Notes: a model not told the origin generated them from the sequence alone. DNA of 43,579 bases from a virus (IMGVR_UViG_2671181030_000006), one strand, 5' to 3'; positions 2,835 through 43,579 are shown, counted from the stretch's first letter. Program-made: numbers and translations.

Positions 2835-5669
2835 TTATGCCTGAGTACGCAGCGCTTCAAGGCGGCGCAGGTCGAAGTCGTTCAGTTCGTCGGTGTAGTC
2901 AGCAGTGATTGGCGCTGGCCATTCACCTGTGTCGAATCCGGTTGCGATATTGCGCATCGCTTTGCGGTACTCGAGCATACCCAGCTCCAGTAGTTCAGCG
3001 GATGCCTCGATGATGGCGATCCAGTGGTAGTTCTCGTCTTTGTTGACGAAAATCCAGAAGAACTGATCCAGCGCTGCGGTTTCGCAGTACATAGCCGCGC
3101 TCAGGTGATAATCACGTTCAATAATTTCCCGGTGTAGCCTGGCGCGCAGGCTTTCCTGCTTAACATTCCACATGCTGATGGTTTTCAGGTCAGCACCGAT
3201 ACGCACGCCGTCTAGGTCGATCTCAAGGTCAGGGCGCACACGAACTTCCAGTCCCGTCTCCTCGTCAAAGCCAAAGTAGCTCACCTCAACGGCGCGGCTC
3301 GGGTGGGTTAGCAGCATGCCTGCGGTCGGGTGTGCCAGCAGGGCCGACTGGATGGCCTGGGCGGTCACCAGCTGCTGGCGCGTCACCAGAATCTTGTCGC
3401 CCGGATTTTCTCGCCAGGCGTCCAGCAGCTCGTCGGCGAATACGGCATCGGGTTTAACCGACTTAATCGCTTGGATCATTTCCGCTTTGCTGCCGGACAC
3501 CTTAAGCGGTGCCGGCTTCTGGGCTTCCTGCTCCACCAGGTCAGGGTTGATGATTGCCAGCTGTTCAAGCAGCGCATCGCGGCTGCCGCTGGTTTTAACC
3601 GGCGCGGGCAGGGTGGCGTTGTACTCTTTGATGCAGGCTTTCATAGCTGCTGCGGTCTGCTTCTGGTCTGGCTCGATGCGCTGGTACTCTGCCGGCAAAG
3701 CCATATAGCTCTGGGCCGTTTCCTCCAGGCTGGCGCCCAGCGGCAGCTGCGCGGGCAGGGTGGCGTTGTGCTCTTCAAGCAGCGCTTTGATATCGTCAGT
3801 GCTCAGCAGTGCCGGCAGGGTGGCGTTGTGCGAATCGATGAACTCGCGCAGGGTGGCGGTGGTAGTAAAAGCATCTTCCGGGATCTCCGGCTCCACGCTG
3901 AACTCTGCCTCAAGGTTTTCAGGCTGCAGCGCCAGGGCGTGAACCAGATTACCCATGTCCAGCACCTTGGAAGGGGCCCGCGGGATAGTTTTGGCGACGT
4001 GGCGCGCGTTGAAGTACATCAGGCTGACCCTGGCATCCTTCACCTGGGTGGAACTGATCCCGTTCGCCGCGTGATAAACGTCATTCGGCACGCCTTCATA
4101 GCGGCCCGGTTCGAAGTACGCCGGGTATTCCGGGACCGGTTGTGAAGGTTGCTCTTCCGGCGCGCTCGCTTTCTCCTCTGATGCTTCGGTGGTCAATTCC
4201 TGCGTAGTGGCGTTCGCCAGCTCCGGCGCCGCGGCGGAGAGCACCTCAGCCGGGTTCAGGGTATCTGTTTGCGGATCAGTTGCATCAGCGCTTTCGCCTG
4301 GTGGTACCGTATCAACAGTTTTGTCTTTCTCTGGCTGAGTCGCTTCCATCTGCACATCGCTGGTGGTCTCCACTACGGTTTCCGGTTTTTCTGCTTCATT
4401 TGAGGGAATATTGATGACCGGGTTAGTATTTCCACTCAACAGGCCATTGATGGAGAACATGCCACCGCCGAGGTTCGCGACCTGCGGCTGAGCTGTTGGT
4501 TCCTCAACCTCTACTTGCGTCTGAACCGCGGACGCGCGCAGGGGCATCAGTTCAGTTGCGGCGTTAAACTCAGCGGTCATGGTCTGGTTAACGAACTCCA
4601 GATGGGCCGCCGGCGTACGATGAATGTTTTCCGGTGCGATCCGTACCAGGTTGAAAATGGCCGCACGGTTTACCGACAGAACGCCAGGCTGGTTACGCAG
4701 AAGGGCGCTCCATGATTTCCAGGGCTCTTCTTTTTTCGCCACGATTTCTTTGGCGCGACGGTGAATGCTGCCCGGGATCTCAAGGTGGTTGAAATCCATC
4801 GGCAGCAGGGCACAGGCGATCTCCAGATCCAGTGTGTCCAGCGTGTGATGCGCACCTTCGCCGCGGTCGGTGACATATCCACCATCGGCATTGGTACCTG
4901 CGTCAGTGCGCTGAACACTACTGATGTGATTACCGGCAGCCCATTCACGCGCCAGGATGCCACGGTCAATGTAATCAGTCGCCGCCCACATTCTGGTGAA
5001 ACGGAGTACCAGCGCGAGTTCGTGACGCTTGTCCTGGCTGAACACTTTGCGAATGGCATCGGTGTAGCGCCACAGGTCTTTGGTGTCGTAACCCTTCACT
5101 TCCGGGCAGTTCTCAGCAGCTAACAGCAAGTTCTGGACGTAACTGTTATCAGTGTCCATCTCCAGCGCGCCGATAGCTTCGTACTCTTCGCGGGTTACGT
5201 GGTGGCGCAGTTCGTCGGCGGTGAACTGGGAAAGCAGTTGCTTACGAAACGGCATCTGCACTACCGGGTAGAGGGTTGAGTCGTCGTCGTGTTCGTCCAG
5301 CGTGATGCCAGCGGTTTCTGGCAGCGTTGACTCAGTAGTTATGTGACTATCAACGGTCTGAGCCGTTTTCTCGTCAGAGTTTTCAGCTGTGACTTTTGGC
5401 AGCCAGGTGCGGTCATCGTTCTGCAGTTCGTAGCGTTCGCACCAGGTGTAATCCACTGCGCCTTCTTCCGGCAGGTCGTCATATACCGGGAAATCGGTGC
5501 GGATTGGTTTGGCATAATCTTTACCGCGGCCAGTTTCTTCAATTCCGGCTTCTTCCAGTGCCACATCGAGTTGGAGATTGGCGCGCGCTACACTTTTCGC
5601 AGTGAACCAAATCACTGCATCTTTCTTGCCAGACTTCTGACTGGCTTTTATCAGATGGAAAAATTCCAT
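2835..5669 (-). CDS. recE: RecE-like exodeoxyribonuclease VIII (C-terminal PD-(D/E)xK-type nuclease), with internal tandem repeats
   Basis: Seen: N-terminal FPVYDDLPEEGAVDYTWCERYEL and TDRGEG motifs closely resemble recalled E. coli RecE. Start chosen at ATG 5669 (MEFFHLIKA...) with a GAGGA Shine-Dalgarno upstream; the track ORF extends to 5774. Confidence 0.8.
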   Translation of the reverse strand: MEFFHLIKASQKSGKKDAVIWFTAKSVARANLQLDVALEEAGIEETGRGKDYAKPIRTDFPVYDDLPEEGAVDYTWCERYELQNDDRTWLPKVTAENSDEKTAQTVDSHITTESTLPETAGITLDEHDDDSTLYPVVQMPFRKQLLSQFTADELRHHVTREEYEAIGALEMDTDNSYVQNLLLAAENCPEVKGYDTKDLWRYTDAIRKVFSQDKRHELALVLRFTRMWAATDYIDRGILAREWAAGNHISSVQRTDAGTNADGGYVTDRGEGAHHTLDTLDLEIACALLPMDFNHLEIPGSIHRRAKEIVAKKEEPWKSWSALLRNQPGVLSVNRAAIFNLVRIAPENIHRTPAAHLEFVNQTMTAEFNAATELMPLRASAVQTQVEVEEPTAQPQVANLGGGMFSINGLLSGNTNPVINIPSNEAEKPETVVETTSDVQMEATQPEKDKTVDTVPPGESADATDPQTDTLNPAEVLSAAAPELANATTQELTTEASEEKASAPEEQPSQPVPEYPAYFEPGRYEGVPNDVYHAANGISSTQVKDARVSLMYFNARHVAKTIPRAPSKVLDMGNLVHALALQPENLEAEFSVEPEIPEDAFTTTATLREFIDSHNATLPALLSTDDIKALLEEHNATLPAQLPLGASLEETAQSYMALPAEYQRIEPDQKQTAAAMKACIKEYNATLPAPVKTSGSRDALLEQLAIINPDLVEQEAQKPAPLKVSGSKAEMIQAIKSVKPDAVFADELLDAWRENPGDKILVTRQQLVTAQAIQSALLAHPTAGMLLTHPSRAVEVSYFGFDEETGLEVRVRPDLEIDLDGVRIGADLKTISMWNVKQESLRARLHREIIERDYHLSAAMYCETAALDQFFWIFVNKDENYHWIAIIEASAELLELGMLEYRKAMRNIATGFDTGEWPAPITADYTDELNDFDLRRLEALRTQA
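3600..3865. repeat. Intragenic tandem repeats (about 4 copies of CAGGGTGGCGTTGT on the + strand) inside recE
   Basis: Seen: copies starting near 3609, 3755, 3815 and a degenerate one near 3849; they encode repeated xHNATLPA peptide units in RecE. Confidence 0.75.
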
Positions 5670-6848: not shown

Positions 6849-6855
6849 TGAGATA

Positions 6856-7788
6856 TTAAAGAACCGATTTAACAAGATGGTTTTTACGGTACAGACCTAT
6901 GCGATCATTGTGAATCTCAGTAGTCTCCACTAAAAGAGAAACAATCTGTCCGACCTTGTGTTTTTTTTGTATTAAATCTAGCATTTCAATCGGATAGGAA
7001 GCCTTTAAATGTTCACCACCAACATCAAGCTCCAGCTTCCCATATTTGGATAGAACGACCAGTTCGCCTGTAACCGTTTCAGTAATGGGAGGGGATGAAA
7101 TGGTTGATGTAAGTCTACTCACCAAGTACTTAATTTTATTGGAGTCAATAGTTGCCACCTTGGTGCCATTACTAAATGGACCGGTCCAACTTGCATCAAA
7201 TGTTAAGTTGTGTTTATCGCATTCCTCTACGATTCTCTTAAGGCTTACAGTGGAATTGTATCCAATTTCAGCGACGTGATTCATGAAGTTGTTGTCGTCA
7301 TCGCTTAACAACAAATCGAATATGCCTTTTACAGCCTTGCTGGGTACTGTTTCTACTAATTCTGCTATTCCTGTAGAGAAGGTGACGCCCAATTTTGTAG
7401 ACCCAGGGGATAAATCAGCCAGCCTGAGGTTTAAGGAGCTTTTCACGTCGTAGGGAACTTTTTTTGAGTCCTTGCCTGAGGCAATTTTGTGTGTTGCTCT
7501 TTGTATTAGCGCTGCAAGATTTGTTGAAATAGCCCCAAGCAGCTCTAAAGGAATAGAGCCAAAGTCAACCTCAGAGCCTTTCAGCCGCAGCTCAAAAAAA
7601 TCGATAAGTGGGTGCCGACTATCTTGCTTTAATTTTTCGGCCTTCAAATCGCTCAGATGAGAATCCATGGAGCGATAAAGAAGCATGTCAGCAAAGGACC
7701 TGGTTTTGTTTTGCTTCATTGCATCGACTTCTTTTTGAATGAAATCAATGCGTTTATCGCAATTTTTAAACATTGATTTATCATTCAT
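6856..7788 (-). CDS. Hypothetical 310-aa protein, distal gene of the AT-rich two-gene cassette at the rex-equivalent locus (candidate defence effector or sensor)
   Basis: Seen: long AT-rich ORF with GAGGA Shine-Dalgarno; start overlaps the upstream gene stop (ATGA). No motif recognised. Confidence 0.7.
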   Translation of the reverse strand: MNDKSMFKNCDKRIDFIQKEVDAMKQNKTRSFADMLLYRSMDSHLSDLKAEKLKQDSRHPLIDFFELRLKGSEVDFGSIPLELLGAISTNLAALIQRATHKIASGKDSKKVPYDVKSSLNLRLADLSPGSTKLGVTFSTGIAELVETVPSKAVKGIFDLLLSDDDNNFMNHVAEIGYNSTVSLKRIVEECDKHNLTFDASWTGPFSNGTKVATIDSNKIKYLVSRLTSTISSPPITETVTGELVVLSKYGKLELDVGGEHLKASYPIEMLDLIQKKHKVGQIVSLLVETTEIHNDRIGLYRKNHLVKSVL

Positions 7789-8264
7789 AAAAAAATCCTC
7801 ACTAACCCTTTCGGGTTTTCACTGCGATCAAAACCAAACCAACCGCGCCAGTAGCTACGCCAGTACTCATAATCATAGTTAGGGTCATCTAAATTCTTCA
7901 TGAGTAGTAGGACATCAATTTTGTAGTTTTGTTTGATGTAGTTTCGGTCAAGCAAATTATCGACGCGGCCCCGAAGCATGACAGGTATTGAGTTTATATT
8001 GCTATAGTCACATACCAACAAAATATCAATATCATCAGGCTCTGGTTTAGACGTGGTGTATGAACCATCAACCCATATTTCTGTAAAACAGCCATATTGA
8101 GCAGATAATTCTCGAATAGATTCGAGTAGCTGTATAAAATTACAGTATAGCATGCCTCGCCTGGATGATGAAGGAAAGCAATCGACACAATACGATTTTA
8201 ATCCAGCTTCATCCATGTCATGGAACCCTGGCTCAAACAGGGGTGGGTAATTAATTTTATCCAT
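7785..8264 (-). CDS. Minimal nucleotidyltransferase-fold protein (GS-x9-DxD motif), proximal gene of the AT-rich cassette
   Basis: Seen: IWVDGSYTTSKPEPDDIDILLVCD matches the Pol-beta-type NTase signature hG[GS]-x9-13-DhDh. ATG 8264 chosen; the track start at 8312 is GTG. Confidence 0.7.
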   Translation of the reverse strand: MDKINYPPLFEPGFHDMDEAGLKSYCVDCFPSSSRRGMLYCNFIQLLESIRELSAQYGCFTEIWVDGSYTTSKPEPDDIDILLVCDYSNINSIPVMLRGRVDNLLDRNYIKQNYKIDVLLLMKNLDDPNYDYEYWRSYWRGWFGFDRSENPKGLVRIFL

Positions 8265-8413
8265 AAAAAACCTTGCTATACATTTGTTTTTTTTTATTAA
8301 AAATCTAACCACCGAAATGGTGACGGCAAGATGTTACATGGGGTTACAATCAGCCAATACACCGCATTAAATAATTTTTTCACCAGCTATGCGCCGACCA
8401 GAACACCTTGCCC

Positions 8414-8574: not shown

Positions 8575-9285
8575 TCACACAAGTCTCAACTTAGTTTCTA
8601 CAGCCACACCAATGATCCGGCAATTCCCATTGATGGGAACCAATGGCCATTGAGGGTTTAAGCCCTTCAGGTACTTCTGGCCCCCATCAATAATCAGCTT
8701 TTTGAATGTCGCTTCGTTTGATTCGGATAGCTTTGCGATCACAAGGCTGCCATTTACTGGCTCTCGGCCGGTATCAAACAAAACGTAGGTACCCTCTGGT
8801 ATGCTGAGCCCGACCGGGGCAGTCATGGATTCCCCCTCGACCAACAACCAGAACGCATCCCCCTGGATGTGAGCGTCTGATTCTAGCCATAGATCGATAT
8901 CTTTAAGTGCATACGGCTCGCACGCTTCCGACCAATGCCCAGCCTGAATCTTGCTTAATACAGGGTATTTAATGCCTGGGGTGTACTGGCCTGCATACTT
9001 GGCATTCGATGTAGCGGAAGCACTCATTGCAGATATTTCTTTCGCAAGGCTGGGGCTAAAATCAGAGACATCCACCTGGAGGGCTCTGGCAAAAACAGCA
9101 GCCACGGCAGCATTAAGGGCATTCCTGCCATTCAAGTAATGCCCAACGCCCCCCTGAGATATGTCTAGCATGTCAGCTATTGATTGCTGTGTTATCCCAA
9201 GCTCTTTTTTCTTGGCTTCATAGAGGGCTTTCAGCCTTTCTGCGTCAGCGATCTGAGCCGATGTCAGTGTCTTTTTCTTTTCCAT
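8575..9285 (-). CDS. cI: CI-type prophage repressor: N-terminal HTH plus C-terminal LexA-like S24 autopeptidase domain
   Basis: Seen: HTH region (ITQQSIADMLDISQGGVGHYLNG), probable Ala-Gly cleavage site (IQAGHW), Ser (GESMT) and Lys (FKKL) catalytic-type residues. ATG 9285 chosen; the track begins at TTG 9291. Confidence 0.9.
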   Translation of the reverse strand: MEKKKTLTSAQIADAERLKALYEAKKKELGITQQSIADMLDISQGGVGHYLNGRNALNAAVAAVFARALQVDVSDFSPSLAKEISAMSASATSNAKYAGQYTPGIKYPVLSKIQAGHWSEACEPYALKDIDLWLESDAHIQGDAFWLLVEGESMTAPVGLSIPEGTYVLFDTGREPVNGSLVIAKLSESNEATFKKLIIDGGQKYLKGLNPQWPLVPINGNCRIIGVAVETKLRLV

Positions 9286-9296
9286 TTTCAAATAGT

Positions 9297-35939: not shown

Positions 35940-35951
35940 ATGGGTGAAAAA

Positions 35952-38900
35952 ATGCAGCTTCTTAAACAAGAAACCATCCTGCAGGGTGCCAAAGGGGGAG
36001 GTGGCAGTTCACATACTCCGGTTGAGCAGCCTGACGATCTGCTGTCGGTCGCAAAATTAAAAATGCTCATTGCCGTTTCTGAGGGGGAAATACAGGGCGA
36101 CCTGACCGCTCAGAACATTTTTCTCAACGATACGCCGCTGGCAAACGACAGCGGGGAATACAACTTCAGCGGCGTGAAATGGGAGTTCCGCAAGGGCACA
36201 CAGGACCAGACCTATATTGCCGGGATGCCCCAGGTCGACAACGAGCTGGCCGTGGGCACAACTGTCACCACCACCGCGCCCTGGACGCGCCAGTTTACAA
36301 ACCTTTCCCTGGATGCCATCCGTATCAAGCTCAGCCTTCCGGTCCAGTATCTCTATAAAGATAATGGCGATATGGTGGGCACGGTCACCGAGTATGCGAT
36401 CGATTTATCAACGGACGGCGGCGCCTGGAAAACGGTTGTAAACGGCAAGTTTGACGGAAAGACCACGACGGAATATCAGCGTGACCACCGTATCGATCTG
36501 CCAAAATCCACGTCCGGCTGGTCTGTCAGGGTCAGGCGTATTACGGCTGATGCCAGCGGATCAAATTCGAAACTGGTTAACGCCTTCAAGGTGTTTTCGT
36601 ATGCGGAAGTCATCGACAGCAAGCTTCGTTATCCTTTAACAGCGCTCCTGTATGTCGAAGTGGACAGCAGCCAATTCAACGGCAGCGCGCCGAAAGTGAC
36701 CTGTAAGATAAAAGGCAAGCTGATTAAGGTTCCGGATAATTACGATCCGAAAACCCGAACCTATTCTGGTTCATGGTCCGGCGGGTTCAAAATGGCATGG
36801 TCCAATAACCCTGCCTGGATCTTTTACGATCTGGTTCTGGATGAAATTTACGGCATGGGCACGCGCGTGGATGCGTCCATGGTGGATAAGTGGGCGCTGT
36901 ATTCAATCGCCCAGTACTGTGACGAAATGGTTTCCGACGGGGCCGGTGGCACCGAACCGCGTTTCACCTGCAACGTTTTCATTCAGAGCCAGGAGGACGC
37001 CTGGCAGGTACTTAACGATCTCGCCGCGGTATTTCGTGGAATAACGTTCTGGGGCAACGATCAGATTTATGTCCAGGCAGACGTCCCGCAGGACGATGTT
37101 GACTGGGTTTATAACGTCTCAAACGTTATCGATGGGCTGTTTACTTATGCGGGCGGCTCATACAAGAATCGCTACAGCTCCTGCCTGGTGTCCTGGTCCG
37201 ATCCGCAGAACCATTACAGCGATACCGTTGAGGGGGTTTACGATTCGGCGCTTGTAGAACGTTACGACGTCCGGCAGACGTCCCTGACCGCAATCGGCTG
37301 CACCTCGCAAAGTGAAGCGCACCGACGCGGTCGCTGGGTATTGCTCTCCAATGCCAAAGACGGGACCGTATCGTTTGGCGTGGGGCTGGACGGTTATATC
37401 CCTTTGCCCGCTGAAATTATCGGTGTCGCCGATCCTTTCCGCTCTGGTAAGGAGAACGGGGGCCGTATAAGCGCGGCCAACGGCCGCCAAATTACCCTCG
37501 ATCGAGAAATAGACTACGCGGCGAAAGACCGGCTGGTGGTTAACCTTCCCGACGGAAAAGCCCAGACGCGGACAATCAGCGCGGTGAGCGCCGATAAAAA
37601 AACGGTGACGGTGGCTACGGCATTCAGTCAGGTTCCTGTGGCGGGCGCTGTTTGGGCGATAGACAGTGATAACCTCGCAATACAGTACTTCAGGGTCACC
37701 TCAATCGCGGCTAACGACGACAGTACAGGCGGTTTCACTATTACGGCCGTTCAGCACGATCCAAACAAATATCGTTACATCGATGACGGCGTTCGGGTCG
37801 AGTCTCCCCCGATCACCGTCACGCCGATAAGCGTCCTGTCTGCTCCGAAGAATATCGTGGTGACTGAGAGCGATCATGTGTCTCAGGGGCTGACTGTAGC
37901 AAGCCTGGACGTGTCATGGGATAAGGTAGAGGGCGCAATCCGGTATGTTGCCCAGTGGCGTAAGGACAACGGGGACTGGATAAACGTTCCGGTTACCAGC
38001 GCGCAGGGTTTCTCGGTTCAGGGCATTTATTCGGGCAGCTATGACGTGCGCGTACGGGCGCTGAATGCGCAGGATACGTCGTCACCATGGGGATACGGTG
38101 AAACAACTTATCTCTCCGGTAAAACGGGAAAACCGGGTACTCCGCTCAACTTCCTGGCGACCGAAGATGTGGTCTGGCATATCGACCTGACCTGGAAATT
38201 TCCGGATGGCTCAGGCGACACGGCCTATACAGAGATTCAGCGCGCCACAACTGCCGACTACGCCAATCCTGAACTGCTGGTCCTGGTGCCGTACCCGGCT
38301 GCAGATTATCAGCATGGCCCCATGCCTGCCGGCGTTCGCCAGTGGTACCGCGCGCGCCTGATTGACCGTATCGGTAACGCCGGGGACTGGACCGACTGGA
38401 TCATGGGCACGTCCTCGATAGATGTCAGCGAAATAACTAATGACATTCTGGAGGATATGAAAGAGTCGGAAACGTTCAAAGACCTGATCGAGAACGCGGT
38501 GGACAGCAACGAAAAAATTGCTGGCATGGCTAACGATATCAAACAGGCCAACGACGAACTGGAGCAGCAAGCGAAAGATATCGCCAAAAATGCCCAGGAC
38601 GTCGGGAAGGTTCAGACCAGCGTTAATGAGCTTTCCAGCACGGTCGGGAATGTTTCGTCTTCACTCAGTCAGCTTGAGCAGACCGTTGCGACGGCTGATA
38701 CCGCCCTGGGCCAGCGAATCGACAACATCAGCGTTTCTATGGACGGCATGACGGGCGGGGTGAAGAACTCTGCAATTGCGATAATCCAGGCCAACCTCGC
38801 TCAGGTGGCCACGCGTAAAACCCTTTCTGCATCGGTCGCCGGCAACAGCGCGAATCTGGACCGCATTGATGAAGTGATTGTCAACGACAGGGAGGCAACG

Positions 38901-39866
38901 GCGCGCTCGCTGTTGAGCCTGCAGACGGACGTTAACGGCAACAAGGCATCCATCAACAGCCTGAACCAGACGTTCTCCGATTACCAGCAGGCTATGGCCA
39001 CGCAGGTAAACAGCATCACGGCGACGGTGAACGGGCATACCTCAGCCATCACCACCAACGCTCAGGCCATAGCGAACGTAAACGGCGACCTCAGCGCGAT
39101 GTACAACATCAAGGTTGGTGTCTCCAGCAACGGGCAGTATTACGCCACGGGGATGGGTATCGGCGTGGAGAATACGCCATCCGGCATGCAGTCGCAGGTT
39201 ATCTTCCTGGCTGACCGCTTCGCCGTCACCACGGCAGCCGGAAATAGCGTAGCTTTGCCGTTCGTGATCCAGAACGGGCAGACATTCATCCGGGCCAGCT
39301 TCATCCAGGACGGCACCATTGAGAACGCCAAAATCGGCAACTATATCCAGTCCAACAACTATGCAGCTGGTTCTGCTGGTTGGAAGTTGAATAAAGCTGG
39401 AGATGCTGAATTCAACAATGTGACCGTCAGAGGTGTAGTATATGCTAGTGGCGGTAGCTTTACTGGTGAGATCCAAGCAACAAGCGGTAAATTCAAAGGG
39501 ACTGTGGAAGCCCAAAGTTTTATCGGGGACATTGCAAATATGCACACCGGAACTAACGTTAGTCGGTCTAGTGACGGTCTTTTAGAAAAGGTAATAACTT
39601 ATACGGATTCATCCAGTTCTGGGCACGCAAGACACGTCTGTGTTATAGCAAACGTTAAAGGTAATGGTGCAGGACTAATCAATATTAACGGCAATGAGAG
39701 TGGTTCATCTGTGCAAGACGTGGAGAGACTTATTATGCATTCTGCTGTTGTAACAGGTCCAAGCGTAACAGTACGTATTAAAGTGTCCGCTCAAAATAAC
39801 AGAGGCGCGTCCATTTATTCGCCTACTGTCATAGTATCACACGGATCTGGTTCATTCACAGGTTAA
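35952..39866 (+). CDS. J: Central tail fibre / host specificity protein gpJ
   Basis: Seen: 1.3-kaa ORF with J-like N-terminus (KGGGGSSHTP) and conserved core (WSNNPAWIFYDLV..., GGTEPRFTCNVF). Start could be ATG 35940 or 35952; 35952 chosen because the upstream hairpin T-tract abuts 35940. The last about 170 codons are AT-rich. Confidence 0.88.
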   Translation: MQLLKQETILQGAKGGGGSSHTPVEQPDDLLSVAKLKMLIAVSEGEIQGDLTAQNIFLNDTPLANDSGEYNFSGVKWEFRKGTQDQTYIAGMPQVDNELAVGTTVTTTAPWTRQFTNLSLDAIRIKLSLPVQYLYKDNGDMVGTVTEYAIDLSTDGGAWKTVVNGKFDGKTTTEYQRDHRIDLPKSTSGWSVRVRRITADASGSNSKLVNAFKVFSYAEVIDSKLRYPLTALLYVEVDSSQFNGSAPKVTCKIKGKLIKVPDNYDPKTRTYSGSWSGGFKMAWSNNPAWIFYDLVLDEIYGMGTRVDASMVDKWALYSIAQYCDEMVSDGAGGTEPRFTCNVFIQSQEDAWQVLNDLAAVFRGITFWGNDQIYVQADVPQDDVDWVYNVSNVIDGLFTYAGGSYKNRYSSCLVSWSDPQNHYSDTVEGVYDSALVERYDVRQTSLTAIGCTSQSEAHRRGRWVLLSNAKDGTVSFGVGLDGYIPLPAEIIGVADPFRSGKENGGRISAANGRQITLDREIDYAAKDRLVVNLPDGKAQTRTISAVSADKKTVTVATAFSQVPVAGAVWAIDSDNLAIQYFRVTSIAANDDSTGGFTITAVQHDPNKYRYIDDGVRVESPPITVTPISVLSAPKNIVVTESDHVSQGLTVASLDVSWDKVEGAIRYVAQWRKDNGDWINVPVTSAQGFSVQGIYSGSYDVRVRALNAQDTSSPWGYGETTYLSGKTGKPGTPLNFLATEDVVWHIDLTWKFPDGSGDTAYTEIQRATTADYANPELLVLVPYPAADYQHGPMPAGVRQWYRARLIDRIGNAGDWTDWIMGTSSIDVSEITNDILEDMKESETFKDLIENAVDSNEKIAGMANDIKQANDELEQQAKDIAKNAQDVGKVQTSVNELSSTVGNVSSSLSQLEQTVATADTALGQRIDNISVSMDGMTGGVKNSAIAIIQANLAQVATRKTLSASVAGNSANLDRIDEVIVNDREATARSLLSLQTDVNGNKASINSLNQTFSDYQQAMATQVNSITATVNGHTSAITTNAQAIANVNGDLSAMYNIKVGVSSNGQYYATGMGIGVENTPSGMQSQVIFLADRFAVTTAAGNSVALPFVIQNGQTFIRASFIQDGTIENAKIGNYIQSNNYAAGSAGWKLNKAGDAEFNNVTVRGVVYASGGSFTGEIQATSGKFKGTVEAQSFIGDIANMHTGTNVSRSSDGLLEKVITYTDSSSSGHARHVCVIANVKGNGAGLININGNESGSSVQDVERLIMHSAVVTGPSVTVRIKVSAQNNRGASIYSPTVIVSHGSGSFTG

Positions 39867-39898
39867 AATATTAACCCCTCTTTTTAGGGGTTAATATT
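39867..39898. terminator. Bidirectional terminator / perfect palindrome between convergent J and lipoprotein genes
   Basis: Seen: 14-bp perfect inverted arms (AATATTAACCCCT...AGGGGTTAATATT) around a T-rich loop. Confidence 0.55.
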
Positions 39899-40131
39899 TA
39901 GTAGTCTATAACACAGTTAGAAGGGCTACCGATTCGTCGGTATTCGTGATCAATCTCGTGACACCACTGCCCCGTCATTGGAAGGTTTTCGGTATCATAA
40001 ATTAAAGAACCGTTACCATCTCGATCCAAAGGTTTTGGAATGACACCGGAATTTGGTTTACCGGTATTTAAACCATTACCACATGCAGTGAGGGACAGAC
40101 ATAATGGCAGCATAATTAGAGCGAGTTTCAT
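39898..40131 (-). CDS. Small lipoprotein (signal peptide plus lipobox LTAC), moron in the Cor/Bor-like position
   Basis: Seen: 77-aa ORF MKLALIMLPLCLSLTACG with strong AAGGAG Shine-Dalgarno; convergent with J; AT-rich. Confidence 0.65.
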   Translation of the reverse strand: MKLALIMLPLCLSLTACGNGLNTGKPNSGVIPKPLDRDGNGSLIYDTENLPMTGQWCHEIDHEYRRIGSPSNCVIDY

Positions 40132-40213
40132 TTGGACTCCTTTGTGTTGTTGACAAGGTTCAATTTTAATATACTTGTTGTGTTGAGTAAGTCAAATAAA
40201 GTGGGAAATGTTA

Positions 40214-40558
40214 TGGCAATTCGTTTACATGGTATTTTAGTTGATGGATTGAATAAACCAATCGTCAACGCAAACGTCTTCTTACTTGCACGAAGCCATT
40301 CATTTTTGATGGGACAATAAATATCACCAATGCGAACCTGAATATTGGTGATAAATTTTGCCAGATTGTTTATACCGGGGCTAACTGTCGACACGTTGGT
40401 GGTTACGGAAATATTAGGTATAAAGGAATTGTAATGACAGGTGGGAATGTCATAGCGGAAAGGAATAAAGTAGTCGGCAATTATTATTTGGGTGGGTGGT
40501 CAATGGCATTTGATACAACTATAGCTATGCCAACACTGGCGTTGCCCAACATGTATTA
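40214..40558 (+). pseudogene. Decayed remnant of a side-tail-fibre (stf-like) gene start, interrupted by stop and frameshift
   Basis: Seen: MAIRLHGILVDGLNKPIVNANVFL resembles the recalled lambda Stf N-terminus (MAVKISGVLKDGTGKPVQNCTI); the ORF stops after 35 codons and continues in another frame. Confidence 0.35.
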
Positions 40559-40636
40559 AAAACCAATTCAGAAATTATTTCTGGTGAGGGTTATATACCT
40601 CTCCGGGCTTCATGTTGTCTAAATTTAGGAGTTGTT

Positions 40637-41548
40637 ATGATTTATAGCACCGGAACTATCTCTATTAACGGAAATACCGCAACCGGCTCCGGCACAAACT
40701 GGACAGCTCCCGCCAGCCAGGTCCGCGCTGGCCAGACGATTATCGTGATGTCTAACCCGGTGCAGCTGTTTCAGATTTCATCCGTGAACAGCGCCACGTC
40801 AATGACGGTTACGCCAGCAGTTTCCCCGGCGCTGAGCGGCCAGAAGTATGGAATCCTTGTGTCGGACAATATCTCAGTCGACGGCCTGGCGCAGGCCATG
40901 TCACAGCTCATCAAAGAGTACGACGAGAATATTGGCGCGTGGGAGACGTTCGCCACCACCTCAGCAAACCAAAGCATCACAGTTACCATCAACGGCACCG
41001 CCGTAACCATCCCAGGCATCGGTAAACTTGCGCAGAAAGGGAGCAACGGTGCGGTTACTGTCGCAGACGGCGGAACCGGCGCAACGAATGCCGCAGACGC
41101 TCGCACAAACCTTGGTTTGGGAGAAGGCTCAGCATTACCTGTTGGGGTGCCTGTTCCGTGGCCTTCAGCCACTCCGCCAACAGGCTGGCTGAAATGCAAT
41201 GGTGCGGCTTTTTCTGCTGAAGAATACCCGGAACTGGCAAAGGCTTACCCGACAAATAAATTGCCTGATTTACGCGGTGAATTTATTCGTGGATGGGATG
41301 ATGGGCGCGGGGTGGATTCCTCTCGTGGTTTGTTGACATCTCAAGACCATTTATTTGCTTCTCATGGGCACTGGTTTGACCAGTACTATGCGCTAAAAAG
41401 TTTTGATCCAACGGGAGGTCGGTTCGTAGTTACGGCTGATGCTTTCGGGGAACTTATTACGGCAAATTCAATTTCTACGGTATCGGTTGGTGGTTCTGAA
41501 ACCCGGCCGCGCAACGTCGCATTTAACTATATCGTGAGGGCAGCCTGA
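40637..41548 (+). CDS. Side tail fibre protein (constant N-terminal part plus currently expressed variable C-terminal part inside the invertible segment)
   Basis: Seen: AGGAG Shine-Dalgarno; C-terminus RNVAFNYIVRAA matches the recalled Stf-type ending NIAFNYIVRLA; the recombination crossover site lies inside the gene near 41101-41126. Confidence 0.8.
   Translation: MIYSTGTISINGNTATGSGTNWTAPASQVRAGQTIIVMSNPVQLFQISSVNSATSMTVTPAVSPALSGQKYGILVSDNISVDGLAQAMSQLIKEYDENIGAWETFATTSANQSITVTINGTAVTIPGIGKLAQKGSNGAVTVADGGTGATNAADARTNLGLGEGSALPVGVPVPWPSATPPTGWLKCNGAAFSAEEYPELAKAYPTNKLPDLRGEFIRGWDDGRGVDSSRGLLTSQDHLFASHGHWFDQYYALKSFDPTGGRFVVTADAFGELITANSISTVSVGGSETRPRNVAFNYIVRAA
41101..41126. repeat. Invertase crossover site, left (inside the tail-fibre gene)
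   Basis: Seen: AAACCTTGGTTTGGGAGAAG; its 15-bp core TTGGTTTGGGAGAAG is repeated in inverted orientation at 42945-42959. Confidence 0.6.
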
Positions 41549-42150
41549 TGAATAAAGCCGTATTAAATAACGAACTCATTGCCATAAAAGCGGGAGACAT
41601 TATCATTTATAATTATGATGGTGAAACGCGTGAATATATTTCTACATCAACTGAATATCTCGCTGTCGGCGTCGGTATCCCGGCATGTTCTTGTTTGGAT
41701 GCACCAGGTACACATAAAGCTGGTTATGCAATCTGTCGCTCTGTAGATTTAAATTCATGGGAATATGTGCCAGATCATCGTGGTGAAATCGTCTATAGCA
41801 CCGAAACAGGAGAATCGAAAAAAATCACAGCTCCGGGTGATTATCCTGAAAATACAACCACTATCGCCCCGTTAACGCCATACGATAAATGGAATGGTGA
41901 GAAATGGGTGACAGATACCGAGGCACAGCACGGCGCAGCAGTAGATGCAGCAGAAGCACTGCGCCAGTCGCTGATTCATACTGCAATGGCCTCCATCAGT
42001 CTGATTCAACTGAAATTACAGGCCGGACGGAATCTGACGCAGGCAGAAACAACCCGCCTTAACGCTGTGCTGGATTACATTTACGCGGTGACGGCAACAG
42101 ATACCAGCACCGCGCCGGATGTCATCTGGCCTGAACTGCCGGAGGCGTAG
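41548..42150 (+). CDS. Tail fibre assembly protein (Tfa), current orientation
   Basis: Seen: 200-aa ORF coupled (ATGA) to the fibre gene; its C-terminus mirrors that of the convergent ORF (conserved WPxxP ending). Confidence 0.8.
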   Translation: MNKAVLNNELIAIKAGDIIIYNYDGETREYISTSTEYLAVGVGIPACSCLDAPGTHKAGYAICRSVDLNSWEYVPDHRGEIVYSTETGESKKITAPGDYPENTTTIAPLTPYDKWNGEKWVTDTEAQHGAAVDAAEALRQSLIHTAMASISLIQLKLQAGRNLTQAETTRLNAVLDYIYAVTATDTSTAPDVIWPELPEA

Positions 42151-42574
42151 GCCATTCAATATCTGGCGCACCGGAAGTATCGATCAGCTCCAGTGCGTCC
42201 AGATAATCCAGCCACAAATTATATTGCGCCAGTTCATCATCTTTCAGACGACCAATAGCGGCTTTACCGGGCCATTGCTTACTGTTCATGTATTCGTTGG
42301 CCTGGTTAATTAGTAGCTGTCTTTCTGATTCAGTAATTTCAATAAGCTCTTCATGCGTGGGTGGAGGAATATCTGCCCACGCAGGCATCCCATCATCTCC
42401 GGCAATACGGATTTTTCCTTGTGGCGGTTCAGCCATAAACTCACTGATAATATTTTGATTCACCTCCTTTGCATCTGATAAATCCCATCCCTCTGATTTA
42501 TATTTATCAATCATATCCACAGGGAAAAAAGCATTATTCCTTGCGCTATAAACATATTCGTTCATATAAATCAC
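42122..42574 (-). CDS. Alternative tail fibre assembly protein (Tfa'), used after inversion
   Basis: Seen: 150-aa convergent ORF overlapping the Tfa 3' end by 29 bp, with similar C-terminal sequence. Confidence 0.75.
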   Translation of the reverse strand: MIYMNEYVYSARNNAFFPVDMIDKYKSEGWDLSDAKEVNQNIISEFMAEPPQGKIRIAGDDGMPAWADIPPPTHEELIEITESERQLLINQANEYMNSKQWPGKAAIGRLKDDELAQYNLWLDYLDALELIDTSGAPDIEWPTPPAVQAR

Positions 42575-42585
42575 CCTGAATAAAA

Positions 42586-42978
42586 TTACTCACCAACAGC
42601 CCACCAACTGTAATTCATCGATACTGTGGAACTGGTTGATGCAGTTCTGTAAGCGGAATTAAAACCGGTTAATGTTGGGCCTTCTGCGGTCATCACGAAT
42701 CCCCGCCCAGCACCTAAAGGCGCACCACCATCACCAGAATGAGTAAGCATGGCGCAGTCCACTTTTTTAGGAAAAGGGATGCTGAATGTAATTCTCATTG
42801 TTTGCGTCGATAATGTCGGCGTAACCGCACCACGACCATATTGCAGGATTTTCCCGTTGGGTAATTTCATCCATCCATCACCACTGGCAAAAGAGGCCAT
42901 GTCCGGTATCTGATTTTCCCCTGTCCCCACATCCCGTTTTGCCGCTTCTCCCAAACCAACCTTTTTTATAACCATCAA
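42586..42978 (-). CDS. Alternative variable C-terminal tail-fibre segment (Sv'-like), silent in this orientation
   Basis: Seen: the ORF begins at the right crossover site and encodes KVGLGEA, matching NLGLGEG at the left site in the expressed fibre; it lacks its own constant N-terminal part. Confidence 0.6.
   Translation of the reverse strand: MMVIKKVGLGEAAKRDVGTGENQIPDMASFASGDGWMKLPNGKILQYGRGAVTPTLSTQTMRITFSIPFPKKVDCAMLTHSGDGGAPLGAGRGFVMTAEGPTLTGFNSAYRTASTSSTVSMNYSWWAVGE
42945..42972. repeat. Invertase crossover site, right
   Basis: Seen: CTTCTCCCAAACCAACCTTTTTTATAACC, the reverse complement of the left-site core. Confidence 0.6.
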
Positions 42979-43030
42979 AAATCTGGTGATGCTTCGCCGT
43001 TTCTCCTGTTTTCATAACAGGAGAAATCCC

Positions 43031-43579
43031 ATGATTTACGGTTATGCCCGAGTATCAACAAACCACCAGGACACTGAATTGCAACTAACGGCGCTCAAGT
43101 CAGCGGGTTGTGAGAAAATTTTTGAAGAGCATGCCAGCGGGAGGAAATCGAATCGGCCGGTTCTAAAACGGCTCATCGCCACTATGCAGCCGGGGGATGA
43201 ACTGGTGGTCTGGAAGCTGGACAGGATAGGCCGCAACGTTCTGCATGCGCTGTTGATGTTCCAGCAGTTACAGGAAAAGGGTATCAACTTCCGCAGTATT
43301 ACCGATGGCGTGGATCTCAAAACAGCCAGCGGCCGCTATAACTTTCGTAACATCCTTTCCGCAGCACAATATGAATCTGATCTTAATAGCGAACGTACCT
43401 TAGCAGGGCTGGCCGTAGCCAGGGCAAAAGGGCGAGTTGGTGGTCGCAGGCCTAAGTTCACGGATGAGCAATGGCGGGAAATGGGGGAGCGGATGGCAAC
43501 CGGTGAATCACGACAAAGCGTATCAAAAACGTATGGAGTAGGGCTCTCAACTCTGTATAAAAAGTTTCCAGCTAGCTGA
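43031..43579 (+). CDS. Serine DNA invertase (Pin/Gin/Hin family)
   Basis: Seen: MIYGYARVSTNHQD...(catalytic Ser region)...C-terminal HTH; AGGAG Shine-Dalgarno; gene ends exactly at the window end with a stop codon. Confidence 0.9.
   Translation: MIYGYARVSTNHQDTELQLTALKSAGCEKIFEEHASGRKSNRPVLKRLIATMQPGDELVVWKLDRIGRNVLHALLMFQQLQEKGINFRSITDGVDLKTASGRYNFRNILSAAQYESDLNSERTLAGLAVARAKGRVGGRRPKFTDEQWREMGERMATGESRQSVSKTYGVGLSTLYKKFPAS

What the first reader, a model, noticed from the sequence alone, without database searches (positions are those of the whole stretch)
39350..40640. Mosaic, AT-rich junction: J C-terminus, convergent lipoprotein moron and a decayed stf-like gene start
From about 39350 the J gene 3' end becomes AT-rich, suggesting a horizontally exchanged receptor-binding domain. 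Immediately downstream, on the opposite strand, is a strongly initiated 77-aa lipoprotein, followed by a perfect 14-bp-arm palindrome. Lipoproteins at this position in lambdoid phages (Cor, Bor) mediate superinfection exclusion or serum resistance. Upstream of the functional fibre gene there is an ORF start that resembles the Stf N-terminus (MAIRLHGILVDGLNKPIVNANV) but is cut by a stop after 35 codons and continues out of frame.
Basis: partly seen in the sequence, partly recalled or inferred. Interest (0 to 1): 0.5.

Follow-up and report, generated by a model that had tools for sequence, protein, structure and literature searches.

The report
LamB-binding tail tip plus exclusion lipoprotein cassette
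An HK97-like prophage carries an imported AT-rich cassette: the receptor-binding tip of tail protein J, predicted to bind the LamB porin, plus a small outer-membrane lipoprotein of a family shown to block LamB-using phages, followed by two dead gene fragments left by the recombination; this is a new member of a known kind.

Summary
Bases 39350-40640 have 40.6% GC against a 52.4% window mean, and third-codon-position GC falls from 0.66 to 0.33 inside J. The 77-aa lipoprotein, its ribosome-binding site, the perfect 14-bp palindrome and the 35-codon ORF are all present.

The J tip is an exchanged receptor-binding domain. It is 94% identical to HK97's (LamB) and 81% to KurtStettler's (lamB-dependent).

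The lipoprotein is not Cor or Bor. It belongs to a small family that always sits convergent to J in LamB-using phages. It is 51% identical to mEp010 Lpp010, which experimentally excludes LamB phages including lambda.

Nonagvirus 9g is collinear with 39271-40299 at 88%. This stretch covers the J tip, terminator, lipoprotein, promoter and the first 28 codons of 9g's lateral tail fibre. The "stf-like start" is therefore a co-transferred scar.

What follows out of frame is not stf. It is the last 85 codons of a DUF6453 gene, which lies between J and the fibre gene in Salmonella phage SPN3UB. HK97 itself lacks 39868-40555.

Verdict: a new member of a known kind. Function and mechanism on LamB remain untested here.

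The parts
35940..39270 (+). Body of tail-tip protein J (host-specificity protein, 1308 aa in all), resident HK97/HK022-type sequence
   Evidence: ORF. Pfam FNIII-A_GpJ, Phage-tail_3 and Phage_Tail_Tip. 89-95% nt identity to HK97, HK106 and Eeyore. GC 0.552, third-position GC 0.662.
39271..39396 (+). Left crossover zone inside J: a conserved core (FIQDGTIENAKIGNYIQSNNY...) shared by both parental types
   Evidence: 9g homology starts at 39271. HK106 and Eeyore homology ends at 39396 and 39390. Protein alignment. GC 0.50.
39397..39866 (+). AT-rich C-terminal receptor-binding domain of J, predicted to bind LamB. The compact all-beta tip is about 39525-39863.
   Evidence: Identity over 155-156 aa: 93.6% HK97, 92.3% 9g, 81.3% KurtStettler, 67% mEp010. 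The tip domain occurs in only 12 phage records. The AlphaFold2 model has pLDDT above 90 for residues 46-158. Best PDB folds are the lambda gpJ-LamB and A8 gpJ-OmpC central fibres, E 3e-5 to 2e-4, TM about 0.45. No sequence match to lambda J residues 1000-1132.
39866..39899 (.). Perfect 14-bp-arm palindrome: a bidirectional intrinsic terminator shared by the convergent J and lipoprotein genes
   Evidence: The equivalent element is annotated as 'H1 loop' in 9g and as a Rho-independent terminator in mEp010.
39898..40131 (-). 77-aa outer-membrane lipoprotein: signal peptide, lipobox LTAC, Cys17, Gly at +2, invariant Cys57 and Cys73. Predicted LamB-directed exclusion / receptor-inactivation protein.
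   Evidence: phrog_12984 'lipoprotein' at 1.3e-56. 96% identity to CAjan and Bas21, 83% to Bas22. 51% to mEp010 gp116 = Lpp010, E 2e-30. Invariant residues. 0-1 nt differences among four E. coli prophage copies, while the flanks differ by 2-26.
40132..40212 (-). Lipoprotein leader and promoter region: SD AAGGAG at 40142-40137, -10 TATATT at 40173-40168, -35 TTGACT at 40195-40190. On the + strand it is also the upstream region of the fibre remnant.
   Evidence: Best promoter-like site in the region, 10 of 12 matches with a 16-nt spacer. Largely conserved in 9g, Bas21, Bas22 and Nissle (alignment). Activity not tested.
40213..40320 (+). Scar 1: the first 28 codons of a Queuovirinae-type lateral tail fibre gene (40213-40296), running into a stop after 35 codons
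   Evidence: MAIRLHGILVDGLNKPIVNANVFLLARS is identical to 9g gp70 residues 1-28. DNA identity to 9g ends at 40298-40299. PHROG tail-fibre N-termini match at 9e-6.
40293..40301 (.). Right (illegitimate) recombination junction between the fibre N-terminus and the DUF6453 3' end, in different reading frames
   Evidence: Three-frame translation and DNA alignment. The same junction is present in Nissle 1917. The fibre remnant and the DUF6453 fragment are both present, with 0-2 and 0-10 base differences, in the other four prophages compared.
40302..40559 (+). Scar 2: the last 85 codons of a DUF6453 gene (full length about 290-330 aa), with no ATG/GTG/TTG start until 40434
   Evidence: Pfam PF20051 positions 229-289 of 291, E 6e-17. 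phrog_1265 positions 248-332 of 332. It aligns to the C-termini of SPN3UB gp38 and DTL ORF51. PGAP flags it as a pseudogene 'missing N-terminus' in strain 730V1. Variant codons: 4 synonymous, 9 non-synonymous.
40556..41548 (+). Resident sequence resumes: stf leader and the functional side tail fibre gene stf (40637-41548)
   Evidence: HK97 homology resumes at 40556 at 96.7%. Pfam Collar domain.

Best explanation
The region is a host-recognition and exclusion cassette recombined into an HK97-like lambdoid prophage from an AT-rich pool of siphoviruses, of the Nonagvirus/Seuratvirus type.

What the cassette contains: (i) the C-terminal receptor-binding domain of J, predicted to bind the maltoporin LamB; (ii) a shared bidirectional terminator; (iii) a convergent gene with its own Shine-Dalgarno sequence and sigma-70-like promoter, encoding a 60-residue mature outer-membrane lipoprotein.

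How the lipoprotein most likely works (inferred): it is lipidated at Cys17, sorted to the outer membrane (Gly at +2) and disulfide-bonded between Cys57 and Cys73. It then acts on LamB so that phages using LamB can no longer infect. In a lysogen this excludes superinfecting LamB phages. During lytic growth it would stop progeny being lost on cell debris, as T5 Llp and Cor do for FhuA.

How the cassette got here (inferred from homology breakpoints): the left crossover was homologous, in the conserved J core at 39271-39396. The right crossover was illegitimate, at about 40293-40301. It joined codon 28 of the donor's lateral tail fibre gene, out of frame, to the last 85 codons of a resident DUF6453 gene that lay between J and stf. 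The stretch 40213-40559 is therefore two non-functional scars.

Shown: the homologies, the breakpoints and the gene architecture. Shown only for a 51%-identical homologue: the exclusion phenotype. Inferred: LamB binding by this J, expression in the lysogen, and the way LamB is blocked.
For: Composition and breakpoints.

Donor. 9g is collinear with 39271-40299 at 87.8%. Donor-type loci have 0.44-0.45 GC, and Bas21-24 genomes have 0.443-0.447 (S5 table of PMC8594841).

Receptor.
- The receptor-binding domain is 93.6% identical to HK97's, and HK97 adsorbs to LamB (PMC6832061).
- It is 81% identical to that of KurtStettler, whose lamB dependence was complemented (PMC8594841).
- It is 67% identical to that of mEp010, whose group uses LamB (PMC11893012).

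Lipoprotein.
- It is 51% identical to Lpp010, E 2e-30. L009 gene mEp010_116 matches the residue positions the paper describes (K2, A11, Q38, V40).
- Lpp010 excluded mEp010, mEp044, mEp554 and lambda.
- Bas21, 22, 23 and 24 are all listed as LamB phages, and all carry the lipoprotein at 83-96% identity.
- Van den Berg et al. had already suggested that LamB phages 'likely do have SE lipoproteins' (PMC9586334).
- The arrangement 'J, convergent lipoprotein, then a fibre gene where the record extends that far' recurs in 9g, Bas21, Bas22, mEp010, Dhillonvirus HH3 and a Salmonella arizonae contig.
- Of the 9 distinct phages with this tip domain, all but HK97 have the lipoprotein gene or DNA matching it.
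- The lipoprotein is the most conserved piece among the prophage copies.

Scars. The gene order J, DUF6453, tail fibre is seen in SPN3UB.
Against: - No experiment exists on this protein or on any lambdoid copy.
- Identity to the tested Lpp010 is only 51%, and Lpp010 failed to exclude the LamB-dependent phage mEp013. Exclusion is therefore not a simple consequence of LamB use.
- LamB has no plug or known allostery, so an Llp-like mechanism is not obviously available.
- E. coli Nissle 1917 carries the same cassette at 97.4% identity, yet lambda still binds its LamB (PMC5987069). If the gene is expressed there, it does not abolish adsorption.
- The promoter is only a consensus match.
- The AlphaFold2 model of the lipoprotein is unreliable, pLDDT 58.
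- No full-length DUF6453 gene close to the remnant was found, so the ancestral J-DUF6453-stf order rests on a Salmonella phage only 51% identical.
Confidence: 0.8

Rival explanations
1. The lipoprotein works only during lytic growth. Like T5 Llp in a virulent phage, it inactivates the receptor so that progeny are not wasted on debris. It is silent in the lysogen, so it gives no superinfection exclusion to the host.
For: Most carriers are obligately virulent phages (Seuratvirus, Nonagvirus, Dhillonvirus). Lambda still adsorbs to LamB of Nissle 1917, which carries the cassette.
Against: The gene has its own sigma-70-like promoter and terminator and is transcribed against the late operon, which is the classic layout of a lysogen-expressed moron. 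It is kept unchanged in several prophages whose flanks have diverged. Temperate mEp phages carry it, and Lpp010 excludes phages when expressed alone.
Confidence: 0.15
2. The lipoprotein is a host-fitness or virulence moron of the Bor/Lom type (serum resistance, adhesion) and has nothing to do with phage receptors.
For: It is a small outer-membrane lipoprotein in a prophage.
Against: No Pfam, NCBIfam or PADLOC family matches. There is no similarity to Cor. The gene is strictly linked to the J 3' end in virulent phages, which have no use for serum resistance. A homologue has an exclusion phenotype.
Confidence: 0.03
3. The stretch 40213-40559 is still functional. Either a -1 frameshift fuses the fibre N-terminus to the DUF6453 C-terminus, or the 85-aa DUF6453 tail is made as a small protein, as RefSeq annotates it.
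For: RefSeq calls a 71-85 aa 'DUF6453 family protein' in most genomes. The fragment has no in-frame stop in five genomes. The two frames differ by -1.
Against: - The fragment covers only the last fifth of the family profile.
- There is no ATG/GTG/TTG start before 40434, so the annotated starts fall on ATT codons.
- There is no canonical slippery heptamer at the junction; the sequence is A-TTT-TTG (read).
- PGAP itself marks the fragment as a pseudogene in strain 730V1.
- Variant codons are 9 non-synonymous to 4 synonymous, which is close to neutral.
- HK97 has lost the whole stretch.
Confidence: 0.06
4. The low GC reflects local mutational bias or selection on a resident sequence, not import.
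For: Tail-fibre regions further right are also AT-rich in places.
Against: The homology breakpoints coincide with the composition steps. The stretch is 88% identical at the DNA level to a virulent phage of another subfamily, and this stretch includes a dead fragment of that phage's fibre gene. Third-position GC jumps from 0.66 to 0.33 within one gene.
Confidence: 0.02

Closest known systems
Lpp010 (gp116, type-C lipoprotein) of temperate phage mEp010, mEpimmI group (PMC11893012)
   Same: It is homologous: 51% identity, E 2e-30, with the core PNSGVIP...DTEKLP.TGQWCHE.DH..RRIGSPSNCV conserved. It has the same convergent position directly after J with a shared terminator. Its J has a related receptor-binding domain, 67% identical. 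Lpp010 excludes LamB-dependent phages, including lambda.
   Different: The window copy sits in a lambdoid, HK97-like prophage, and that paper says no lipoprotein of a lambdoid phage is reported to exclude lambda. The signal peptide and the first 12 mature residues differ. The window protein is untested.
Lipoprotein downstream of gpJ in LamB-targeting Queuovirinae (9g gp69, CAjan, Seurat, BASEL Bas21-24); phrog_12984
   Same: 83-96% protein identity. In 9g, 88% DNA identity across the J tip, terminator, lipoprotein, promoter and fibre start. Bas21-24 are listed as LamB phages. The literature names these as likely exclusion lipoproteins.
   Different: Those phages are virulent and carry an intact lateral tail fibre gene after the lipoprotein; here only 28 codons of it survive. 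No experimental test of these proteins was found in the papers searched.
T5 Llp and Cor of T1, phi80, HK022 and N15 (FhuA-directed exclusion lipoproteins)
   Same: Functional analogy: small outer-membrane lipoproteins encoded beside the receptor-binding function that inactivate the phage's own receptor. The HK106 Cor gene is also 77 aa and lies between the J region and stf.
   Different: There is no sequence similarity: no alignment to HK106 Cor, and no PDB chain matches by sequence or by profile (the PDB holds the FhuA-Llp complex 8A60). The target is predicted to be LamB, a porin without a plug domain, so the allosteric mechanism solved for Llp-FhuA need not apply.
Phage HK97 J (gp24) and its J-stf junction
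   Same: The J tip is the same, 93.6% identical. The flanks are the same, 89% and 97% nt identity. The receptor is LamB.
   Different: HK97 lacks 39868-40555. In its place are 125 bp containing 17-bp inverted repeats, GGAAGGTGCGAATAAGT. The model phage therefore lacks the lipoprotein that its prophage relatives keep.
Lambda gpJ receptor-binding domain (PDB 8XCJ/8XCK)
   Same: Same position at the J C-terminus and, by inference, the same receptor. It is among the best structural matches of the predicted tip domain, E 5e-5, probability 1.0.
   Different: 13-14% identity and TM only about 0.45. No sequence-level match beyond lambda J residue 1000. It is a different allele class of LamB binder.

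Membership tests
LamB-associated exclusion lipoproteins (Lpp010 type C / phrog_12984) | Sequence homology to the experimentally tested member and to the PHROG profile | tested here: met
   51% identity to mEp010 gp116, E 2e-30. phrog_12984 at 1.3e-56, full length 1-77 of 77.
LamB-associated exclusion lipoproteins (Lpp010 type C / phrog_12984) | Type II signal peptide with lipobox [LVI][ASTVI][GAS]C, and the two further conserved cysteines | tested here: met
   L14-T15-A16-C17. C17, C57 and C73 are invariant in 21 sequences.
LamB-associated exclusion lipoproteins (Lpp010 type C / phrog_12984) | Gene lies convergent to J, directly after its stop codon, in phages that use LamB | tested here: met
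   Window layout. The same layout is seen in 9g, Bas21, Bas22, mEp010, HH3 and a S. arizonae contig. LamB use of Bas21-24, the mEp010 group and HK97 is taken from papers.
LamB-associated exclusion lipoproteins (Lpp010 type C / phrog_12984) | Expression alone excludes LamB-dependent phages | not testable with these tools
   Needs plating and adsorption assays. It has been shown only for Lpp010.
Cor (FhuA-directed exclusion protein of phi80, HK022, N15 and T1) | Sequence similarity to Cor | tested here: not met
   BLASTP against HK106 Cor gives no alignment at E <= 100.
Bor (Pfam Lambda_Bor) or other curated lipoprotein families | Match to a curated family model | tested here: not met
   No Pfam family at E <= 1, no NCBIfam family and no PADLOC family.
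T5 Llp | Sequence or fold similarity to Llp (PDB 8A60) | tested here: inconclusive
   No PDB sequence match at E <= 10 with the single sequence; with the family profile only two unrelated chains above E 0.2. The fold could not be compared because the AlphaFold2 model is poor, pLDDT 57.9.
Lambda-type J C-terminal receptor-binding domain | Trimeric fibre end followed by a beta-sandwich tip at the J C-terminus that binds an outer-membrane porin | tested here: inconclusive
   A confident all-beta tip is predicted. The best folds are the lambda gpJ-LamB and A8 gpJ-OmpC fibres, but TM is about 0.45 and identity 13-17%. There is no sequence match to the lambda tip. Binding was not tested.
Tail fibre N-terminal domain (Pfam phage_tail_N, lambda Stf type) | Match to the N-terminal domain profile, and a full-length gene | tested here: not met
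   Only profile positions 1-30 of 134 are present, E 0.061, 13.8 bits against a cut-off of 26.6. PHROG tail-fibre N-termini match at 9e-6. Identical over 28 of 28 residues to 9g gp70, then truncated. It is a fragment of a family member, not a gene.
DUF6453 (PF20051) | Full-length protein of about 290-330 aa | tested here: not met
   62.3 bits, above the cut-off of 25, but only profile positions 229-289 of 291 are present. Full-length SPN3UB gp38 (319 aa) and DTL ORF51 (318 aa) align only over their C-termini. Called a pseudogene in one RefSeq record.
Bidirectional intrinsic terminator | GC-rich hairpin flanked by an A-tract and a U-tract, between convergent genes | tested here: met
   14-bp perfect arms whose outer halves are AT-rich and whose inner 5 bp are CCCCT/AGGGG. 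Folding energy is significant on both strands. The terminator scan hits it. Termination itself was not measured.

The most novel reading that the evidence does not exclude
This would be the first lipoprotein from a lambdoid phage that excludes lambda-type (LamB-using) phages. Because LamB has no plug and no known allostery, the lipoprotein would have to block a porin in a way different from the Llp-FhuA mechanism. It might insert into or cap the LamB channel, or block a step after adsorption. It would then also be a candidate for the unidentified factor that keeps lambda DNA out of E. coli Nissle 1917 even though lambda still binds LamB there. The model phage HK97 would be a natural deletion mutant of its own exclusion gene.
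Probability: 0.3. Interest if true: 0.55.

Novelty: new member of a known kind. Interest (0 to 1): 0.38.

Why it matters
It turns an unannotated "hypothetical protein" into a specific, cheaply testable prediction: protection against LamB-using phages. That gene is present in about 0.8% of complete E. coli genomes (43 of 5426), including the probiotic Nissle 1917.

It shows a virulent-phage host-recognition cassette captured whole by a temperate phage, with both recombination endpoints still readable.

It explains two mis-annotated ORFs. The "DUF6453 family protein" and the stf-like start are recombination scars.

It also gives a lambdoid entry point to an open question raised by van den Berg et al.: how a small lipoprotein can disable a receptor that is not TonB-dependent.

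Tried and rejected
- AlphaFold2 on the lipoprotein with 21 homologues gave pLDDT 57.9, so no fold search was run on it.
- Sequence and profile searches of the lipoprotein against the PDB found nothing meaningful.
- Pfam, NCBIfam and PADLOC gave no family for the lipoprotein.
- A weak PHROG hit to an Rz-like spanin (E 0.25, residues 2-32) is signal-peptide similarity only. The gene is not in a lysis cassette, so this was rejected.
- Rfam found no RNA family in 39300-40700. The lipoprotein leader and the fibre upstream region fold no better than shuffles.
- Programmed frameshifting across 40299-40309 was rejected for lack of a slippery site.
- Searches for a close full-length ancestor of the DUF6453 remnant in E. 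coli genomes and in the protein database found only other copies of the remnant.
- I first suspected that the Nissle 1917 copy lies in the 'prophage 3' implicated in lambda resistance. The coordinates place it in PHAST 'prophage 4' instead, so that link is only a hypothesis.
- The exhaustive profile search shows a very small family: three clusters at 50% identity, plus two giant repetitive proteins that I take to be spurious.

Full report

Yes. In 300-bp windows, GC falls from 0.59 (39000-39299) to 0.45 (39300-39599). It stays at 0.37-0.43 until about 40600 and is back at 0.54-0.58 inside stf.

The stretch 39350-40640 has 0.406 GC, against a mean of 0.524 (sd 0.048) for all windows of the same length. 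Only one other island, near 6850-8400, is as low. Within the single gene J, third-position GC is 0.662 in the body and 0.327 in the last 156 codons.

The other features are also present:
- The 77-aa ORF on the - strand at 39898-40131.
- Its AAGGAG sequence, 5 nt before the ATG.
- The perfect 14-nt inverted repeat at 39866-39879 / 39886-39899.
- The 35-codon ORF beginning MAIRLHGILVDGLNKPIVNANV at 40213.

**2. What the window is**

The tail end of the window is an HK97-like lambdoid prophage.
- J, stf and tfa are 89-97% identical in DNA to HK97.
- The same 1.3 kb occurs in 43 of 5426 complete E. coli genomes, at 97-99% identity in most, including Nissle 1917.
- RefSeq calls the lipoprotein 'hypothetical protein' and annotates a 'DUF6453 family protein' at 40302/40344-40559.

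**3. The J tip**

J genes of HK022-type phages (HK106, Eeyore) match the window at 91-95% up to 39390-39396 and then stop. Nonagvirus 9g starts to match at 39271.

Identity of the domain that follows to other phages:

| Phage | Identity |
|---|---|
| HK97 | 93.6% |
| 9g | 92.3% |
| KurtStettler (Bas22) | 81.3% |
| mEp010 | 67.1% |
| Bas21 | 37% |
| Dhillonvirus HH3 | 32% |

The last 113 residues are found in only 12 phage records.

Evidence for the receptor comes from these relatives:
- HK97 adsorbs to LamB (PMC6832061).
- KurtStettler is lamB-dependent, with complementation (PMC8594841).
- The mEp010 group uses LamB (PMC11893012).

LamB is therefore the predicted receptor of this J. This is an inference from 81-94% identical domains.

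The tip is not lambda's tip by sequence: lambda J aligns only up to its residue 1000. An AlphaFold2 model is confident for residues 46-158. Its best PDB matches are the lambda gpJ-LamB and A8 gpJ-OmpC central fibres, at E 3e-5 to 2e-4 but with TM about 0.45 and 13-17% identity. This suggests the same general architecture, but only weakly.

**4. The lipoprotein**

Sequence features:
- It has a type II signal peptide, the lipobox LTAC and Cys17. Gly at +2 predicts outer-membrane sorting by the established Lol rule.
- Two further cysteines are invariant in 21 homologues, as are the motifs PNSGV.P and GQWC.

What it is not:
- It hits no Pfam, NCBIfam or PADLOC model.
- No PDB chain matches.
- It does not align with Cor of HK106.

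What it is:
- It matches phrog_12984 'lipoprotein' over its full length, 1.3e-56.
- It is 96% identical to the protein encoded directly after J, on the opposite strand, in Seuratvirus CAjan and GottfriedDienst (Bas21). It is 90% identical to the 9g protein, 83% to KurtStettler, 72-74% to Dhillonvirus HH3 and EP23, and 51% to mEp044 and mEp010.
- The 'J, convergent lipoprotein, then a fibre gene where the record extends that far' arrangement is the same in every locus I opened.

Link to LamB:
- The S5 table of PMC8594841 lists Bas21, Bas22, Bas23 and Bas24 as LamB phages, and all four carry the gene.
- Van den Berg et al. noted that LamB phages such as Bas23 'likely do have SE lipoproteins'.
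- The decisive functional evidence comes from PMC11893012. Gene gp116 of mEp010 (Lpp010), expressed alone, excluded mEp010, mEp044, mEp554 and lambda, but not mEp013. I verified that L009 gene mEp010_116 is that protein; residues K2, A11, Q38 and V40 agree with the paper's description.
- The same paper states that no lipoprotein of a lambdoid phage is reported to exclude lambda. The window holds a candidate.

Conservation:
- Among four collinear E. coli prophage copies, the lipoprotein differs by 0-1 bases. The J tip differs by 5-26 and the DUF6453 remnant by 2-10.
- Across phages, the lipoprotein is much better conserved than the tip. Bas21 is 96% against 37%; HH3 is 74% against 32%.
- Lpp010 also excludes lambda, whose tip is unrelated in sequence. 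Together these facts argue that the protein acts on the receptor and not on a particular tip.
- The family is tiny: three clusters at 50% identity among 1.84 billion representatives.

**5. Signals around the gene**

The palindrome fills the gap between the two stop codons. It folds significantly on both strands and corresponds to elements annotated as a stem-loop or terminator in 9g and mEp010. It is a shared bidirectional terminator.

The best promoter-like site of the region lies on the - strand, about 30 nt upstream of the ribosome-binding site: TTGACT, a 16-nt spacer, TATATT, at 40195 to 40168. It is largely conserved in 9g, Bas21 and Bas22. Whether it fires in a lysogen is untested.

**6. 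The 'stf-like' start and what follows**

9g is collinear with the window from 39271 to 40299 in one 1029-bp block at 87.8%. That block ends 28 codons into the 9g lateral tail fibre gene gp70. The window peptide MAIRLHGILVDGLNKPIVNANVFLLARS is identical to gp70 residues 1-28 and then diverges.

However, the ORF is a passenger fragment of the donor's fibre gene, not a decayed resident stf.

From 40302, in another frame, the sequence encodes the last 85 residues of a DUF6453 protein:
- Pfam positions 229-289 of 291, E 6e-17.
- phrog_1265 positions 248-332 of 332.
- It aligns to the C-termini of SPN3UB gp38 and DTL ORF51.

In Salmonella phage SPN3UB the gene order is J, DUF6453, tail fibre. This is the order expected for the recipient before the cassette replaced the J tip and three quarters of DUF6453.

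The junction at about 40293-40301 is also present in Nissle 1917. Both scars are present, almost unchanged, in the four other prophages compared. This suggests a single event.

Evidence that the remnant is dead:
- It has no ordinary start codon before 40434.
- PGAP flags it as a pseudogene in strain 730V1.
- It shows 9 non-synonymous to 4 synonymous variant codons.

HK97 lacks 39868-40555 altogether. In its place are 125 bp bounded by 17-bp inverted repeats. HK97 homology resumes at 40556.

**7. Direction of transfer**

The cassette's GC is 0.42 and its third-position GC is 0.33-0.36. This fits the Queuovirinae loci (0.44-0.45) and genomes (0.443-0.447), not the J body. The dead 28-codon piece of a fibre gene that is intact in 9g also points to transfer into the lambdoid genome.

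**8. Mechanism, and what remains open**

Shown here or in papers:
- The architecture, homologies and breakpoints.
- LamB use by close relatives.
- Exclusion by a 51%-identical homologue.

Inferred:
- This protein reaches the outer membrane and renders LamB useless to phages.

How it does so is unknown, because LamB has no plug domain.

A cautionary datum comes from Nissle 1917. It carries the cassette, resists lambda and is reported to hold an unidentified factor that prevents DNA entry, yet lambda still binds its LamB. Either the gene is not expressed enough there, or the block comes after adsorption.

The Nissle copy maps to PHAST 'prophage 4', not to the 'prophage 3' studied in that paper. 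This assumes that the table uses CP007799 coordinates.

**9. Verdict**

The finding is real and now largely explained. It is a LamB-type J tip with its cognate exclusion lipoprotein, imported as one cassette, followed by two recombination scars. It is a new member of a known kind, and the first candidate in a lambdoid, HK97-like phage. It is of moderate interest, mainly because the prediction is cheap to test and the way LamB is blocked is unknown.

Noticed in passing
window 41107-43579: There is an invertible tail-fibre switch. 20-nt inverted repeats AAACCTTGGTTTGGGAGAAG lie at 41107-41126 (inside stf) and 42945-42964; from memory they resemble gix/cix/hix crossover sites. They flank tfa (41548-42150, +), an alternative tfa (42122-42574, -) and an alternative fibre C-terminus (42586-42978, -, Gp53-like_C). 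A serine invertase (Resolvase + HTH_7) starts at 42986 and runs off the window.
   Followed up: partly
window 6856-8312 (- strand), next to the CI-like repressor at 8575-9291: This is the only other island as AT-rich as the finding, about 0.40 GC. Two genes occupy the rexAB position: a 310-aa protein matching PADLOC PDC-M63B (7.5e-45), and a 175-aa protein matching PDC-M63A (2.4e-41) and Pfam DUF6932. Together they form a candidate two-gene anti-phage system carried as a moron.
   Followed up: partly
L003 (HK97) 2567-2691: Exactly where the window has the lipoprotein and the two scars, HK97 has 125 bp containing 17-bp terminal inverted repeats GGAAGGTGCGAATAAGT...ACTTATTCGCACCTTCC. From memory these look like IS5 ends, so this may be a miniature IS5-derived element or the footprint of the deletion.
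   Followed up: no
L011 (E. coli EC23HZZ201) 1599-2599: This prophage keeps identical scars (fibre remnant and DUF6453 fragment, 0 differences) but carries another allele of the cassette. Its J tip is 67% identical to the window's, about as distant as mEp010's. Its lipoprotein has the mEp010-type C-terminus (...PYTGQWCHELDHNMRRIGSPSNCVANY). The tip and lipoprotein alleles therefore travel together. There is no ATG at the homologous start, and PGAP extends the ORF to 165 aa.
   Followed up: partly
window 40302-40559 and homologous RefSeq loci: RefSeq annotation is inconsistent. The DUF6453 remnant is called as a 71-85 aa protein in most genomes; the homologous start positions are ATT codons in the window. 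In strain 730V1 it is called a pseudogene 'missing N-terminus'.
   Followed up: yes
L010 (phage DTL) 4108-5261 and L012 (SPN3UB) 4299-5258: Full-length DUF6453 proteins (about 318 aa, annotated 'membrane protein') always lie directly next to J. They are co-oriented between J and the fibre gene in SPN3UB, and convergent with J in the Drexlerviridae phage DTL. This is the locus where Maffei et al. place the dedicated receptor-binding proteins of small siphoviruses, so DUF6453 may be such a protein. Only one paper mentions the family.
   Followed up: no
window 40128-40394 (- strand): An 88-aa GTG ORF overlaps the promoter region, the fibre remnant and the DUF6453 remnant on the opposite strand. 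It is most likely spurious.
   Followed up: no
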